The position numbers are program-made. From Escherichia coli (GTDB lineage: Bacteria; Pseudomonadota; Gammaproteobacteria; Enterobacterales; Enterobacteriaceae), in assembly GCF_003334355.1 (NCBI RefSeq), contig NZ_QOWP01000008.1: a stretch of 64,000 nucleotides of DNA; one strand, 5' to 3'. This document shows, piece after piece, positions 19,801 to 28,800 of this stretch (position 1 is the first letter of the stretch; each line of letters starts with the position of its first letter).

Positions 19801-22800
19801 AGGGTAAGCCGACACAGCTGCTGATGCTGACAGATAAGCAAATCGCCGATTTCCAGAAACATTATCAGACTGAAGCGGAGCGTTTTCATATTCTGCCACC
19901 GGGGATTTATCCTGATCGTAAATATAGCCAGCAGCCAGCCAATAGCCGTGAAATCTTCCGTAAGAAGAATGGAATAACCGAACAACAATATTTATTGTTG
20001 CAGGTCGGTTCAGACTTCACGCGTAAAGGTGTCGATCGTTCCATTGAAGCACTTGCTTCGTTACCGGATTCGCTGCGCCACAACACATTGCTATATGTTG
20101 TTGGGCAGGATAAACCGCGAAAATTTGAGGCACTGGCAGAAAAACGCGGCGTGCGCAGTAATGTTCACTTCTTCTCGGGGCGCAACGATGTCTCGGAATT
20201 AATGGCGGCGGCGGATTTATTACTGCATCCTGCCTACCAGGAAGCGGCGGGAATTGTGCTGCTGGAAGCGATTACTGCAGGATTACCGGTACTAACAACA
20301 GCCGTTTGTGGCTATGCGCATTATATTGTCGAGGCCAATTGCGGCGAGGCTATTGTTGAGCCATTCCGCCAGGAAACATTGAATGAGATTTTACGCAAAG
20401 CGTTAACGCAATCTTCATTGCGCCAGGCCTGGGCGGAAAATGCGCGACATTATGCTGATACACAAGATTTATACAGTCTGCCAGAGAAAGCGGCGGATAT
20501 CATAACGGGTGGTCTGGATGGTTGAACTTAAAGAGCCGTTTGCCACGTTATGGCGCGGCAAAGATCCTTTTGAGGAAGTTAAAACCTTGCAGGGTGAGGT
20601 ATTTCGTGAACTGGAAACTCGCCGTACTCTGCGCTTTGAAATGGCGGGCAAAAGCTATTTTCTCAAATGGCATCGCGGCACGACCCTGAAAGAGATAATC
20701 AAAAATTTACTCTCATTGCGGATGCCAGTATTAGGCGCTGACCGCGAATGGAATGCGATTCATCGACTGCGGGATGTCGGCGTTGATACTATGTATGGGG
20801 TGGCATTTGGCGAAAAAGGCATGAATCCGCTGACCAGAACTTCATTTATTATTACCGAAGATCTGACACCAACCATAAGTCTGGAAGATTACTGTGCTGA
20901 CTGGGCGACTAACCCTCCAGATGTTCGCGTAAAGCGTATGCTTATTAAGCGTGTCGCGACGATGGTGCGCGATATGCATGCTGCGGGCATTAACCACCGT
21001 GACTGTTATATCTGTCATTTCCTGCTGCACTTGCCTTTTTCCGGTAAGGAAGAGGAGTTAAAAATTTCGGTAATTGACCTGCACCGGGCGCAGCTTCGCA
21101 CGCGCGTTCCACGTCGTTGGCGGGATAAAGATCTTATTGGGCTTTATTTTTCTTCGATGAATATCGACCTGACTCAGCGGGATATCTGGCGGTTTATGAA
21201 AGTGTATTTTGCCGCCCCGCTTAAAGACATTCTCAAGCAGGAACAAGGACTGCTGTCGCAAGCAGAAGCAAAAGCCACAAAAATCAGGGAAAGAACGATT
21301 CGAAAATCGTTGTAATTTCCGGAGAGAAATATGAGTGCCCACTATTTTAATCCACAAGAGATGATCACTAAGACAATCATCTTCGATGAAAGGCCAGCGG
21401 CGTCAGTGGCATCATCATTCCATGTTGCTTATGGCATTGATAAAAACTTTCTTTTTGGTTGTGGTGTTTCAATCACGTCAGTTTTGTTACATAACAACGA
21501 CGTGAGTTTTGTTTTCCACGTTTTTATTGATGATATCCCTGAAGCCGATATCCAGCGTTTAGCCCAATTGGCGAAAAGCTATCGTACCTGTATCCAGATC
21601 CATCTGGTAAATTGTGAACGGCTTAAGGCATTACCGACGACCAAAAATTGGTCTATTGCCATGTATTTCCGTTTTGTAATTGCAGATTACTTTATTGATC
21701 AACAAGATAAGGTTCTTTACCTGGATGCTGATATCGCCTGTCAGGGAAACTTAAAGCCGCTGATAACAATGGATCTTGCCAATAACATTGCTGCTGTTGT
21801 TACTGAACGCGATGCTAACTGGTGGTCGTTACGGGGTCAAAGTCTGCAGTGTAATGAACTTGAAAAGGGTTACTTTAATTCAGGTGTCCTGTTAATTAAT
21901 ACACTAGCGTGGGCGCAGGAGTCCGTTTCTGCTAAAGCGATGTCGATGCTTGCTGATAAAGCCGTCGTTTCCCGTTTAACCTATATGGATCAAGATATAC
22001 TTAATCTTATCCTGTCAGGGAAAGTTAAATTCATTGATGCTAAATACAATACGCAATTTAGTTTAAATTATGAATTAAAAAAATCATTTGTTTGTCCAAT
22101 TAATGATGAAACCGTATTAATTCATTATGTCGGCCCGACAAAACCCTGGCATTACTGGGCCGGTTATCCAAGTGCGCGACCTTTTATCAAAGCCAAAGAG
22201 GCATCGCCCTGGAAAAATGAACCGTTAATGCGGCCAGTTAACTCAAACTATGCTCGTTATTGCGCCAAGCATAATTTTAAACAAAATAAACCAATTAACG
22301 GGATAATGAATTATATTTATTATTTTTATTTAAAGATAATAAAATGAAATTGAGAAAAGTTAAATGAATGAATTTATAAAAGAACGGTTTTCGTATTTAG
22401 CAGATAATAAAAAAGAAAACGCCCCAGAGCTAAATGTTTCCTACGGTATCGATAAGAATTTTTTGTATGGTGCTGGCGTTTCAATTTCTTCCGTTTTGAT
22501 TAATAATTCAGATATTAATTTTGTCTTTCATGTTTTCACTGATTATGTGGATGATGATTATTTAAAGTCATTTAATGAAACAGCAAAACAATTTAATACC
22601 TCAATTATTGTATATTTAATTGACCCCAAATACTTTGCTGATCTGCCGACGTCACAGTTTTGGTCGTACGCGACATACTTCAGGGTATTGTCTTTTGAAT
22701 ATCTGAGTGAAAGTATTTCCACACTGCTGTATCTGGATGCCGATGTTGTTTGTAAAGGAAGCCTGAAACCTCTCACAGAAATTATATTTAAAGATGAGTT

Positions 22801-25800: not shown

Positions 25801-28800
25801 CATCTTGAAAGTGAAAGGCTATTAACATCGGAAAAAAAACAACCTAGAACAAGGCTTCAGAAAAGAATGAAGTTTATACGCTCCTGGATAAAGGTGGCTT
25901 TTTTTTCTCTTTTGAAATGAGATTGTTAATTTCAATTTGTTGTGAGATATTAACGTGGAAGTAAAAATTGAGCAATTTCGAAATAATAGCTGTAATTTTA
26001 TTTTTTTATTGTATTTAATCGGTTTGTTGTTTGTGCCAATTGATCTTAATATCACCACTAAAATAATTAATGCGACAGGTGCATTTTCTCTTTTCTTATT
26101 AATTGTAAATAAAAAGCATAATTATAATAAAAATGTCATTATATTAATTCTTGGTTTACTTCTTTTGGGTGCAATGAACCTGATATGGTATGAATTTTAT
26201 AAAACAGAAGATGTAGTATATAGAAATGCTTATCGAGGCTACCTTGAGTCTGGAAAACTATTAGTATTTAGCTCGTTGACATTTTTATTACTAAGTAAAA
26301 ATAAATTCAGGCAAAATGAAAAACTACATTTTATTTCAGCCATCTTAGTTCAAATAATCATGCTATGTAGAGCATATTATCAAGGGATATATTTGCATGC
26401 AGACCGCATTCCCCTCTCCGCCATGAATGGGAATATTGGTCAAATGGGGGCAGCGACTATTGCGGCTTATGTGATTACATTCACCACTTTATATTCTTCA
26501 ATTGTATTCATCAAAATGCAATCGAAATATAAATGGTTTCTATTTTATGCTAACTTTGCTTTAAGTTTTGCTGCAGTAACAATGACTGGCACTAGGGCGG
26601 CGATTTTTACATTCCCACTAATGATTATGGTTATTTTATTAATACAATATCGTAATCAGAGAGTGTTTTTATTTAAAGGATTGAGTGGTTTCTTTTTTTT
26701 ATTTCTAGTATGCGGATTAATATTCAATAAGGGAATTGAAAGACGGATCAACGCATTACAAACAGATGTGATTTCCTATACTACAAAAAATAATAGCAAT
26801 TCATCAGTAGGTGCGCGGTTTGCTATGGTTAATGCAGGTATTAAGGGTAGTCCCGATACTTTAGGATGGCAATCCCTTGAAGAGCGAGCCAAAAAGATAA
26901 AAGCTTTAAGTTTAGATAATAATATTTATAATAGTGTTCTTCCTTTTCTGGATGTACATATGCATAACGAAATTGTGGAATCTCTTTCCACGAAAGGAAA
27001 AATTGGTCTTCTTGTTCTTATTATGTTCTATGTTGCAATGATCTATTACTGTATCCGGGAGAAAAAATATATACTCTTGGTTTTCCCTGCTTCTATTATG
27101 TTATTTGGCATTAGTGATGTCATTACACATGCTAAACCAATACCGGCATCGTGGATTGTGTGCCTCTTCCTGTCTACATCGTTTTTGAGTAAAAAAGAAC
27201 CACAATAATAAAAGCGTTGACTAAGTAAGTGGGTATAATACCCACTTACTATTTATTAAATCAATGTGATTTTTTTATAAACAGCCGCTGCTTCTAAATT
27301 ATTTAAATTCATTAGCGGAGCCCTACAAACCATCTGATTCTTCCCATACCCGCCAATTAATCCAGGGTCGGTAGGTCCATAAACCGTGATATTGGGTCTA
27401 TCCAGTGCCGCCGTTAAATGGCTTAACCCCGTATCCACCGACACTACAAATTTAGCCCCGGCCAGCACGCGGGCAACGCCTTCCAGACTCATCTTAGGCA
27501 ATACTTCAACATAAGCAAATCCTTCCGCCAGTCGTTTCGCCCGTTCTTCCTCATGCGGCGCGCCCCACGGAAGTTTAATCCGTATTCCTGAATCAGCCAG
27601 TAAACCAATCAATTCTCGCCAGTGTTCTTCCGGCCAGTGTTTATCATCACGGGTCGTCGCATGAAGAAATACGGCATATTCGCCAGCATCTGTAGGCAGG
27701 TTCGTCAGAAAATGCTGTGCGATAGCATAATCGCCCTGGGTTTGCGGTTTGCTATAGCCCAAACTTTTGGCAAACAGTTCGCGGGTGCGTTCTACGGCGT
27801 GCTGCTGTTTTGCAATATGATGCTTACGATTGTAAAACAGACTGGCTAAAGGTTCGCGAGCGGTTTTCCAGTCCATGCCATGCTTTACGCCATGCGCCAG
27901 ACGCGTCACCAGCGCCGCGCTTTTTACCAGCCCCTGAGCGTCGATAACTGCGTCATAGTTCTCTGCTTGTAGCGCTTCACGAAACGCTTTGCGTTCCGCT
28001 TTTATGGGGGCCGAGAACCAGGCTTTACGCCAGCGACGTATTGCCACAGGAATAACTCGCTCAACGGCAGCGTGCCAGGAAGGAATCTGTGCGAACCCTT
28101 CTTCCACCACCCAGTCAAACTTAATCCCTGGGATTGCCTGCTGGGCATCAGTGAGTGCGGGCAACGTATGGAGAACATCGCCCATCGACGATGTTTTAAC
28201 GATCAAAACCCGCATCCGTCAGGCTTCCTCTTGTAACAATAGCGCGTTGAGTTCTTCCAGTACGCGCTGGGGAGTAATGTCGATTAAGCTCTGGTGATAA
28301 CCCTCCGCAGCGTCACCTTTACGCACTTTGTGATAGCCGGTAATCAAACGGATCACGCGCGCTTTATGGGATAGCGGCGGTGTGAAGTCCGGGCTACTCG
28401 GACCATACAGGGCAACCAGCGGACGATTGAGCGCCGCCGCAACATGCATCAGGCCAGAATCGTTAGTGACAATGGCTTTACAGGCTGCAATCAGGATAAC
28501 CGCTTGATCAAGCTGTGTTTCCCCCGCCAGGTTCCGACACCATGCCTGCTGCTCGGTATTCAAAGCGGCAAGAATCTCATTGCCCGCTTCATGATCTTTC
28601 GCCGAGCCAAACAGAACCACCTGATAACCTTCATCAATCAGCTGCTTTGCCAGCTCCGCATAGTGGTAGTGTGGCCAGCGTTTTGCCGGACCAAACTCCG
28701 CACCCGGGCAAAAACCAATCATCGGACGTTCTGATGAAAGCGAAAATTGATTACAGGTATATGATTTTTCACCTTCGCTCACCTGCAACTGCGGCCATAA

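What the first reader, a model, noticed from the sequence alone, without database searches (positions are those of the whole stretch)
21331..27208. R1/R4-type LPS outer-core gene set rather than the K-12 set
After waaP the order is GT8, GT8, waaY, GT8, GT25-like, waaL, with waaL on the same strand as the waaQ operon and convergent with waaC. That matches the published R1 (waaO-T-Y-W-V-L) or R4 (waaX in place of waaV) organisation and not K-12, where waaL is on the opposite strand. The block is markedly AT-rich, typical of laterally exchanged core loci. The GT25 gene (25147-25920) decides between a beta-Glc and a beta-Gal side branch.
Basis: partly seen in the sequence, partly recalled or inferred. 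Interest (0 to 1): 0.4.

Follow-up and report, generated by a model that had tools for sequence, protein, structure and literature searches.

The report
E. coli R4-type LPS core genes
This stretch is the ordinary, already described R4 version of the E. coli gene cluster that builds the outer core of lipopolysaccharide; the one unusual detail is that its O-antigen ligase gene carries a foreign 385-base patch.

Summary
After waaQ-waaG-waaP come GT8, GT8, waaY, GT8, GT25 and an O-antigen ligase, all on the + strand. The ligase gene is convergent with waaC. GC falls to 0.30-0.38, against 0.49 for the whole window.

The R1-or-R4 question resolves to R4:
- Published core-typing primers give the exact 380-bp R4 product and no R1, R2, R3 or K-12 site.
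- The gene after waaW is GT25 (WaaX). An R1 comparator has an unrelated GT2 gene (WaaV) there.
- The ligase is 34.5% identical to the R1 ligase and 31% to the K-12 ligase.

The same waaX-waaL module is in 691 of 5,426 complete E. coli genomes, and several are near-identical across the whole 5.9 kb. This is a known locus of low interest.

Compared with an R1 strain whose flanks are almost identical, the R4-specific cassette is window 25045-27315. It includes the 3' ends of waaW and waaC.

Side finding: this waaL is a mosaic. A 385-bp block (26566-26950) differs about 23% in DNA (dS 1.37) from the waaL of 89% of R4 genomes, while the rest of the gene differs about 1%. The block encodes two membrane helices and most of the large periplasmic loop. 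No donor was found.

The parts
18258..18296 (+). JUMPStart element with the ops motif (GGCGGTAGCGT at 18285-18295) in the leader of the waaQ operon
   Evidence: Rfam RF01707 at 55.2 bits against a gathering score of 35. The ops pattern has a single match in the window.
18346..19404 (+). waaQ (heptosyltransferase III), first gene of the long operon
   Evidence: NCBIfam PRK10422 equivalog, 712 bits. RefSeq calls it rfaQ.
19401..20525 (+). waaG (GT4 glucosyltransferase I)
   Evidence: 89.8% identical to K-12 WaaG. RefSeq calls it waaG.
20509..21315 (+). waaP (heptose I kinase). The RefSeq start corresponds to 20518.
   Evidence: NCBIfam PRK15123 equivalog, 479 bits. RefSeq annotation.
21331..22347 (+). 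waaO (GT8; adds the second hexose, alpha-1,3)
   Evidence: PRK15171 at 612 bits, above its cut-off. Protein 100% identical to that of R1 strain MRE162. 50% identical to K-12 WaaO.
22364..23359 (+). waaT (GT8; alpha-1,2-galactosyltransferase of R1/R4 cores). The name comes from its position in the published R1/R4 gene order.
   Evidence: GT8 paralogue at 304 bits, below the PRK15171 cut-off. 100% identical to the MRE162 protein.
23369..24061 (+). waaY (heptose II kinase)
   Evidence: NCBIfam PRK10359 equivalog, 401 bits.
24087..25115 (+). [quoted passage not shown] It carries the shared R1/R4 primer site at 24956-24975.
   Evidence: RefSeq product name in many genomes. Primer hit. Found in 2,526 of 5,426 genomes.
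25147..25920 (+). waaX (GT25; beta-galactosyltransferase that defines the R4 core). It carries the R4-F primer site at 25317-25335.
   Evidence: Pfam PF01755, E 2e-51. Primer hit. 99.2% aa identity to the copy in the common R4 locus. Orthologues at 49-71% identity lie next to related ligases in other Enterobacterales.
25955..27208 (+). waaL, the R4-type O-antigen ligase, minority (mosaic) allele
   Evidence: Wzy_C domain. Matches the solved WaaL structure 7TPG. 92.8% identical to the majority R4 WaaL, 34.5% to R1 WaaL and 30.6% to K-12 WaaL. R214, R288, H335 and H337 are invariant across the four ligases aligned.
26566..26950 (+). Divergent block inside waaL (gene nt 612-996, residues about 205-332). 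It covers two membrane helices plus most of the large periplasmic loop.
   Evidence: 89 mismatches in about 400 bp against about 1 per 100 bp elsewhere. 28 of the 30 aa differences fall here. dS 1.37 in the block against 0.056 outside it. The block is dimorphic in E. coli: 77 genomes at 99% or more, 615 at 78-80%.
25045..27315 (.). R4-specific cassette relative to an R1 locus with near-identical flanks. It holds the last 71 bp of waaW, waaX, waaL, the intergenic hairpin and the last 60 bp of waaC.
   Evidence: blastn of the window against MRE162 (L002): 99.78% identity up to 25044 and 98.4% from 27316, with nothing alignable between.
27224..27250 (.). Perfect 12-bp-stem palindrome between the convergent waaL and waaC genes; candidate two-way terminator
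   Evidence: Terminator-like scan. Consensus match only; function not shown.
27256..30207 (-). waaC, waaF and rfaD (heptosyltransferases I and II, ADP-heptose epimerase). This convergent operon lacks waaL here.
   Evidence: NCBIfam RfaC equivalog. 96.5% and 99.7% identical to K-12 WaaC and WaaF. RefSeq annotation.

Best explanation
This is the chromosomal waa (rfa) locus of an E. coli strain with the R4 core type, in the order waaQ-G-P-O-T-Y-W-X-L.

From established knowledge of the R1/R4 pathway (Heinrichs et al. 1998; Raetz and Whitfield 2002; names as used in PMC13293308), inferred here rather than shown:
- WaaG adds the first glucose to the heptose inner core.
- WaaO adds the alpha-1,3 second glucose.
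- WaaT and WaaW add two alpha-1,2 galactoses.
- WaaX, the GT25 enzyme, adds the beta-galactose side branch that distinguishes R4 from R1.
- WaaP and WaaY phosphorylate heptoses I and II, and WaaQ adds heptose III.
- The R4-specific WaaL then joins undecaprenyl-pyrophosphate-linked O antigen to the finished core in the periplasm.

The nine genes form one long operon behind a JUMPStart/ops leader. Expression of the last gene, waaL, should therefore depend on RfaH antitermination (inferred).

The low-GC outer-core part is exchanged between strains by homologous recombination in the conserved flanks. The R1/R4 difference is a 2.3-kb cassette with ends inside waaW and waaC.

In this strain waaL has also undergone an intragenic exchange of a 385-bp segment.
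For: - Gene order and families.
- In-silico PCR gives the exact 380-bp R4 product and no site for any other core type. The same primers give 842 bp (R1) on MRE162 and 380 bp on two other R4 genomes.
- The slot after waaW holds GT25 here and GT2 in the R1 locus.
- WaaL is 34.5% identical to R1 WaaL and 30.6% to K-12 WaaL.
- The window holds no waaV.
- 691 of 5,426 complete genomes (12.7%) carry waaX-waaL, and 2,526 carry waaW, which R1 and R4 share. This is close to the 13.0% R4 reported in PMC8715443.
- JUMPStart/ops sits upstream of waaQ.
- Cassette limits.
- Mosaic block.
Against: - No chemistry: the core type is a genotype call.
- The prototype sequences (F2513 for R4, F470 for R1) could not be reached with the tools. 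Identity rests on published typing primers and on comparator genomes typed with the same primers.
- The linkage made by WaaX is given as beta-1,4 in PMC13293308 and as beta-1,3 in the review PMC3526765. I did not resolve this.
- RefSeq names WaaO a '3-alpha-galactosyltransferase' after the Salmonella model. Donor sugars cannot be read from sequence.
- The waaL allele here is the minority one, so it is not shown to behave like the ligase of the common R4 locus.
Confidence: 0.95

Rival explanations
1. The locus is the R1 core type (waaV, beta-glucose side branch).
For: waaO, waaT and waaY proteins are 100% identical to those of an R1 strain, and waaW DNA is 99.9% identical over its first 931 bases.
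Against: There is no R1-F primer site within 4 mismatches. The gene after waaW is GT25, not the GT2 found in the R1 locus. WaaL is only 34.5% identical to R1 WaaL. The only tblastn match of R1 WaaV in the window is a 32% match over 139 residues to the unrelated GT2 gene at 32891.
Confidence: 0.01
2. The strain is an R1/R4 hybrid like ECOR46, carrying both waaV-waaL(R1) and waaX-waaL(R4).
For: Such a strain is described in PMC13293308. Only 64 kb of the genome can be seen here.
Against: The window has one waaL, one waaX and no waaV. The locus is intact and collinear with ordinary R4 genomes. Genomes with the module have a median of one copy.
Confidence: 0.02
3. The locus makes an R4-like core, but the mosaic WaaL has a changed specificity, in acceptor site or in the range of polymers it ligates. 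This would make it a functional sub-type rather than plain R4.
For: 28 amino-acid changes are concentrated in residues 209-330, which include the large periplasmic loop carrying catalytic R288. The allele is stably present in 77 genomes from humans, pigs, poultry and water.
Against: dN/dS in the block is 0.10, which indicates purifying selection. The invariant residues R214, R288, H335 and H337 and their surrounding motifs are kept. waaX and all the other transferases are essentially the same as in common R4 loci, so the acceptor should be unchanged.
Confidence: 0.12
4. The locus is a K-12, R2 or R3 core type.
For: None.
Against: There are no primer sites for these types. waaL is on the waaQ strand, unlike in K-12. 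Outer-core proteins are 31-52% identical to K-12. waaS, waaB, waaZ and waaU are absent.
Confidence: 0.005

Closest known systems
E. coli R4 core-type waa locus (prototype strain F2513; waaQGPOTYWXL)
   Same: Same gene order and strands, a GT25 waaX, an R4-type waaL, the exact 380-bp R4 typing amplicon and low GC. DNA is 99-100% identical to many RefSeq genomes.
   Different: The waaL allele is the minority form. A 385-bp internal block is about 79% identical in DNA to the block found in 89% of R4 genomes. Which allele the prototype carries was not determined.
E. coli R1 core-type waa locus (prototype F470; waaQGPOTYWVL)
   Same: Identical organisation. The waaQ-to-waaW part is near-identical (99.78% over 5.5 kb to strain MRE162), and waaL is likewise last in the waaQ operon.
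   Different: R1 has a GT2 waaV (327 aa) where the window has a GT25 waaX (257 aa). Its waaL is only 34.5% identical. The last residues of WaaW and WaaC also differ.
E. coli K-12 waa locus
   Same: Shared inner-core genes: waaC 96.5%, waaF 99.7%, waaG 90%, waaP 84%, waaQ 73%.
   Different: In K-12 waaL is in the rfaD-waaF-waaC-waaL operon on the other strand. The outer-core set is waaS-B-O-J-Y-Z-U. htrL lies between kbl and rfaD.
waaX-waaL-like gene pairs in other Enterobacterales (Cedecea, Citrobacter amalonaticus, Leminorella, Shimwellia, Erwinia)
   Same: GT25 homologues at 49-71% identity and ligase homologues at 49-64% occur on contigs of matching lengths (111676, 576562, 105114, 4158725, 141716). 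This suggests the pair travels together.
   Different: They are much more divergent. Adjacency was inferred from matching contig lengths only and was not inspected.

Membership tests
E. coli R4 LPS core-type locus | Gene order waaQ-G-P-O-T-Y-W-X-L on one strand, with waaL convergent with waaC | tested here: met
E. coli R4 LPS core-type locus | R4-specific typing amplicon (waaW-waaX, 380 bp, primers of PMC13293308) | tested here: met
   Perfect primer matches at 24956-24975 and 25317-25335, giving a 380-bp product.
E. coli R4 LPS core-type locus | waaX (GT25 beta-galactosyltransferase) in place of waaV (GT2) | tested here: met
   PF01755 at E 2e-51. The R1 comparator has PF00535. The two proteins show no similarity.
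E. coli R4 LPS core-type locus | R4-type waaL allele | tested here: met
   92.8% aa identity to the ligase of the common R4 locus, and both fall in one 90% protein cluster. Caveat: an internal block is only 78% identical in protein.
E. coli R4 LPS core-type locus | Sequence identity to the prototype F2513 genes (GenBank AF019745, accession from memory) | not testable with these tools
E. coli R4 LPS core-type locus | Core oligosaccharide with a beta-Gal side branch on the second glucose | not testable with these tools
   Requires chemical analysis.
E. coli R1 LPS core-type locus | waaV (GT2) and the R1 amplicon of 842 bp | tested here: not met
   No R1-F site and no waaV in the window.
E. coli K-12 core-type locus | waaL co-transcribed with waaC; waaS, waaB, waaZ and waaU present | tested here: not met
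WaaL O-antigen ligase (Wzy_C family) | Polytopic membrane protein with a Wzy_C domain and the conserved Arg/Arg/His residues of the periplasmic loops (K-12 R215, R288, H338; residue roles from memory of Perez et al. 2008) | tested here: met
   PF04932. Hydrophobic stretches. R214, R288, H335 and H337 are invariant in the alignment with K-12, R1 and R4 ligases. Match to 7TPG.
RfaH-dependent operon | JUMPStart/ops element in the leader | tested here: met
   RF01707 at 55.2 bits at 18258-18296. ops motif. Dependence on RfaH itself was not tested.

The most novel reading that the evidence does not exclude
The waaL of this strain is a natural chimera. The segment encoding two membrane helices and the large catalytic periplasmic loop was imported from an unsampled ligase lineage (dS 1.37 in the block against 0.056 in the rest of the gene). 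This loop swap would change what the ligase accepts, either the attachment site on the R4 core or the set of undecaprenyl-linked polymers it will ligate. It would then define a functional R4 sub-type found in about 11% of R4 strains.
Probability: 0.12. Interest if true: 0.45.

Novelty: already known. Interest (0 to 1): 0.12.

Why it matters
Core type is useful strain metadata. It determines which phages can use the LPS core as a receptor, which anti-core antibodies bind, and which O antigens tend to be paired with the strain. Calling this window R4 is a routine typing result.

The mosaic waaL is a modest extra. WaaL acceptor and donor specificity is still poorly mapped. Two natural alleles that differ only in the loop-encoding segment, on otherwise identical R4 loci, would make a ready-made pair for testing what that loop contributes.

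Tried and rejected
- Amor et al. 2000 (PubMed id 10678915) is not held, so its primers could not be used.
- NCBIfam has no model for the GT25 protein or for this ligase.
- A donor for the waaL block was sought in two places. All 5,426 E. coli genomes at blastn sensitivity gave only R4 ligases, and no R1, R2, R3 or K-12 waaL matches the block. Among the 5.8 billion protein clusters the next relatives are only 59-66% identical in the block, and none is closer to the window's allele than to the common one.
- P0020, which looked like a third allele at 84% identity, is a frameshifted copy of the common allele.
- A DNA or peptide scan of genome contigs for the donor was considered and dropped. It would have been redundant with the protein search.
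- Structure prediction of WaaL was considered and dropped, because model coordinates cannot be analysed with the tools.
- The direction of the exchange (which allele is the recombinant) cannot be decided without the donor.
- The promoter and terminator scans were not enriched over shuffles. Only the waaL-waaC palindrome was retained, and only as a candidate.
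Full report
**1. Observation**

They follow waaQ (18346-19404), waaG (19401-20525) and waaP (20509-21315).

- NCBIfam equivalog models identify RfaQ, RfaP, RfaY and, on the opposite strand, RfaC (27256-28215), all above their curated cut-offs.
- The first GT8 gene (21331-22347) passes the PRK15171 cut-off. The other two GT8 genes match the same model below cut-off, as expected for paralogues.
- 25147-25920 is Pfam Glyco_transf_25 at E 2e-51.
- 25955-27208 has a Wzy_C O-antigen ligase domain. It matches the solved WaaL structure 7TPG.
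- GC per gene is 0.30-0.38 from waaO to waaL. It is 0.47-0.54 in the conserved waa genes on either side and 0.49 for the whole window.
- The stated contrast with K-12 is correct. In NC_000913.3, waaL is the last gene of the rfaD-waaF-waaC-waaL operon, opposite to the waaQ operon.

**2. Which core type**

Trofimova et al. 2025 (PMC13293308, Table 2) give nine primers for typing the five E. coli core types in vitro and in silico.

- In the window, the shared waaW primer matches perfectly at 24956-24975 (+) and the waaX-specific R4 primer at 25317-25335 (-). The product is exactly the specified 380 bp.
- None of the R1, R2, R3 or K-12 primers has a site within four mismatches.
- As a control, the same primers give the 842-bp R1 product on strain MRE162 (L002) and the 380-bp product on two other genomes that carry the module.
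- In MRE162 the gene after waaW is a 327-aa family-2 glycosyltransferase (RefSeq annotation; Pfam PF00535 at E 3e-39). It has no detectable similarity to the window's GT25 protein.
- The MRE162 ligase is 34.5% identical to the window's ligase.
- R1 WaaV has no counterpart in the window. Its only hit is a 32% match over 139 residues to the unrelated GT2 gene at 32891.
- Against K-12, WaaO is 50% identical, WaaY 52% and WaaL 31%.

The locus is therefore R4 (waaQGPOTYWXL).

**3. How common**

- The full 5.9-kb stretch is 99.4-100% identical to many RefSeq genomes from humans, pigs, poultry and water.
- The waaX-waaL module is in 691 of 5,426 complete genomes (12.7%).
- waaW, which R1 and R4 share, is in 2,526 genomes.
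- This is in line with the 13.0% R4 reported by Leclercq et al. 2021 (PMC8715443).

**4. Anatomy of the R1/R4 difference**

The window and the R1 strain MRE162 are 99.78% identical from waaG to window position 25044, and 98.4% identical from 27316 onward. Nothing is alignable in between. The type-specific cassette is therefore 25045-27315. It contains:

- the last 71 bp of waaW, so WaaW is only 93.8% identical between the two strains;
- waaX and waaL;
- a perfect 12-bp-stem palindrome at 27224-27250 between the convergent genes;
- the last 60 bp of waaC. RfaC is 319 aa here and 323 aa in the R1 locus.

In other R1 genomes the waaW homology stops at gene positions 931, 950 or 958. This fits the exchange of the variable region by homologous recombination in conserved flanks, which Leclercq et al. 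propose.

**5. How it most likely works**

Shown here: the genes, their families and order, and a JUMPStart element with the ops motif at 18258-18296 upstream of waaQ (Rfam RF01707 at 55 bits).

Inferred from established knowledge of the R1/R4 pathway (Heinrichs et al. 1998, cited from memory; enzyme names as in PMC13293308):

- WaaG, WaaO, WaaT and WaaW build the Glc-Glc-Gal-Gal backbone.
- WaaX adds the beta-Gal side branch to the second glucose.
- WaaP and WaaY phosphorylate the heptoses, and WaaQ adds heptose III.
- WaaL ligates O antigen in the periplasm.
- Because waaL is the ninth gene behind an ops leader, its expression should depend on RfaH.

Two caveats on names. The WaaX linkage is given as beta-1,4 in PMC13293308 and as beta-1,3 in PMC3526765, and I could not resolve this. 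The RefSeq name of WaaO ('3-alpha-galactosyltransferase') derives from the Salmonella model and should not be read as a donor-sugar call.

**6. Side finding: a mosaic waaL**

I compared the window with a common R4 locus (EC21Z-151, L003).

- waaO to waaX are 98.2-99.6% identical in DNA, but waaL is only 91.9% identical.
- The differences are not spread along the gene. There are 89 mismatches in window 26547-26946, against 0-3 per 100 bp elsewhere in the rest of waaX-waaL, and no indels.
- The dense block runs from gene nt 612 to 996 (window 26566-26950). It holds 28 of the 30 amino-acid differences, at residues 209-330.
- A Nei-Gojobori estimate for codons 205-332 gives dS 1.37, dN 0.135 and a ratio of 0.10. 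The rest of the gene has dS 0.056.
- This is the signature of an intragenic import from a long-diverged homologue under purifying selection. It is not the signature of rapid local evolution.
- Across E. coli the block is strictly dimorphic: 77 genomes are at least 99% identical to the window and 615 are 78-80% identical, with nothing in between.
- No waaL of another core type matches the block at blastn sensitivity.
- In a search of 5.8 billion protein clusters, both alleles fall in one 90% cluster. The next relatives are 59-66% identical in the block, and none is closer to the window's allele. The donor is unsampled and the direction of the exchange is undecided.
- The block covers the hydrophobic stretches at 210-258 and most of the following hydrophilic loop.
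- R214, R288, H335 and H337 are invariant across the R4 (both alleles), R1 and K-12 ligases. From memory, these correspond to the K-12 residues R215, R288 and H338 shown to be essential by Perez et al. 2008.
- I found no mention of this dimorphism in the two core-typing papers I read. That is not proof that it is undescribed.

**7. Verdict**

The open choice is resolved to R4.
- The locus is already known and common, so interest is low.
- The mosaic ligase is a real feature but a modest one. A functional consequence is possible but unsupported. Purifying selection, conserved catalytic residues and an unchanged set of core transferases all argue for an ordinary R4 ligase.

Noticed in passing
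window 26566-26950 (inside waaL): A 385-bp block is about 23% divergent in DNA (dS 1.37) from the waaL of 89% of R4 genomes, while the rest of the gene differs about 1%. The block is strictly dimorphic in E. coli (77 against 615 genomes). No donor was found.
   Followed up: yes
window 25045-25115 and 27256-27315: The R1/R4 cassette boundaries lie inside the coding 3' ends of waaW and waaC. The C-termini of WaaW (342 against 341 aa, 93.8% identity) and WaaC (319 against 323 aa) therefore differ between core types.
   Followed up: partly
window 27224-27250: Perfect palindrome (12-bp stem, 3-nt loop) between the convergent waaL and waaC genes. It could be a two-way terminator and lies within the R4-specific cassette.
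   Followed up: no
window 30208-30420: Only 213 bp separate rfaD and kbl. htrL, which sits there in K-12, is absent here and in the other R4 and R1 loci examined.
   Followed up: partly
window 32891-33925: Intact 344-aa GT2 gene (NCBIfam PRK10073, 633 bits), probably waaH/yibD. In the otherwise near-identical strain MLI023K1 this gene is destroyed by an IS1A insertion.
   Followed up: partly
window 5294-6982 and 7888-8724: ligB (562 aa) and dinD (278 aa) are open here. In MLI023K1 they are annotated as pseudogenes, with an internal stop and a frameshift. The window therefore does not come from that strain.
   Followed up: no
window 24111 and 26911: These are the only two differences from MLI023K1 within the finding: waaW codon 9 (Ser here, Thr there) and a synonymous change in waaL codon 319. 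The waaL change is absent from every complete genome examined, since the best block identity is 99.8%.
   Followed up: partly
window 45897-49916 (- strand): 1,338-aa trimeric autotransporter adhesin (matches Vomp, Ata, EmaA and YadA models, all below their cut-offs). It is unrelated to the finding.
   Followed up: no
proteins P0009/P0055, P0010/P0062, P0018/P0072, P0037/P0083, P0038/P0076: Homologues of the R4 ligase and of WaaX occur on contigs of matching lengths in Cedecea, Citrobacter amalonaticus, Leminorella, Shimwellia and Erwinia. This suggests the waaX-waaL pair is a conserved unit outside Escherichia. Leclercq et al. 2021 reported no homologue of the variable region outside Escherichia and Shigella.
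   Followed up: no
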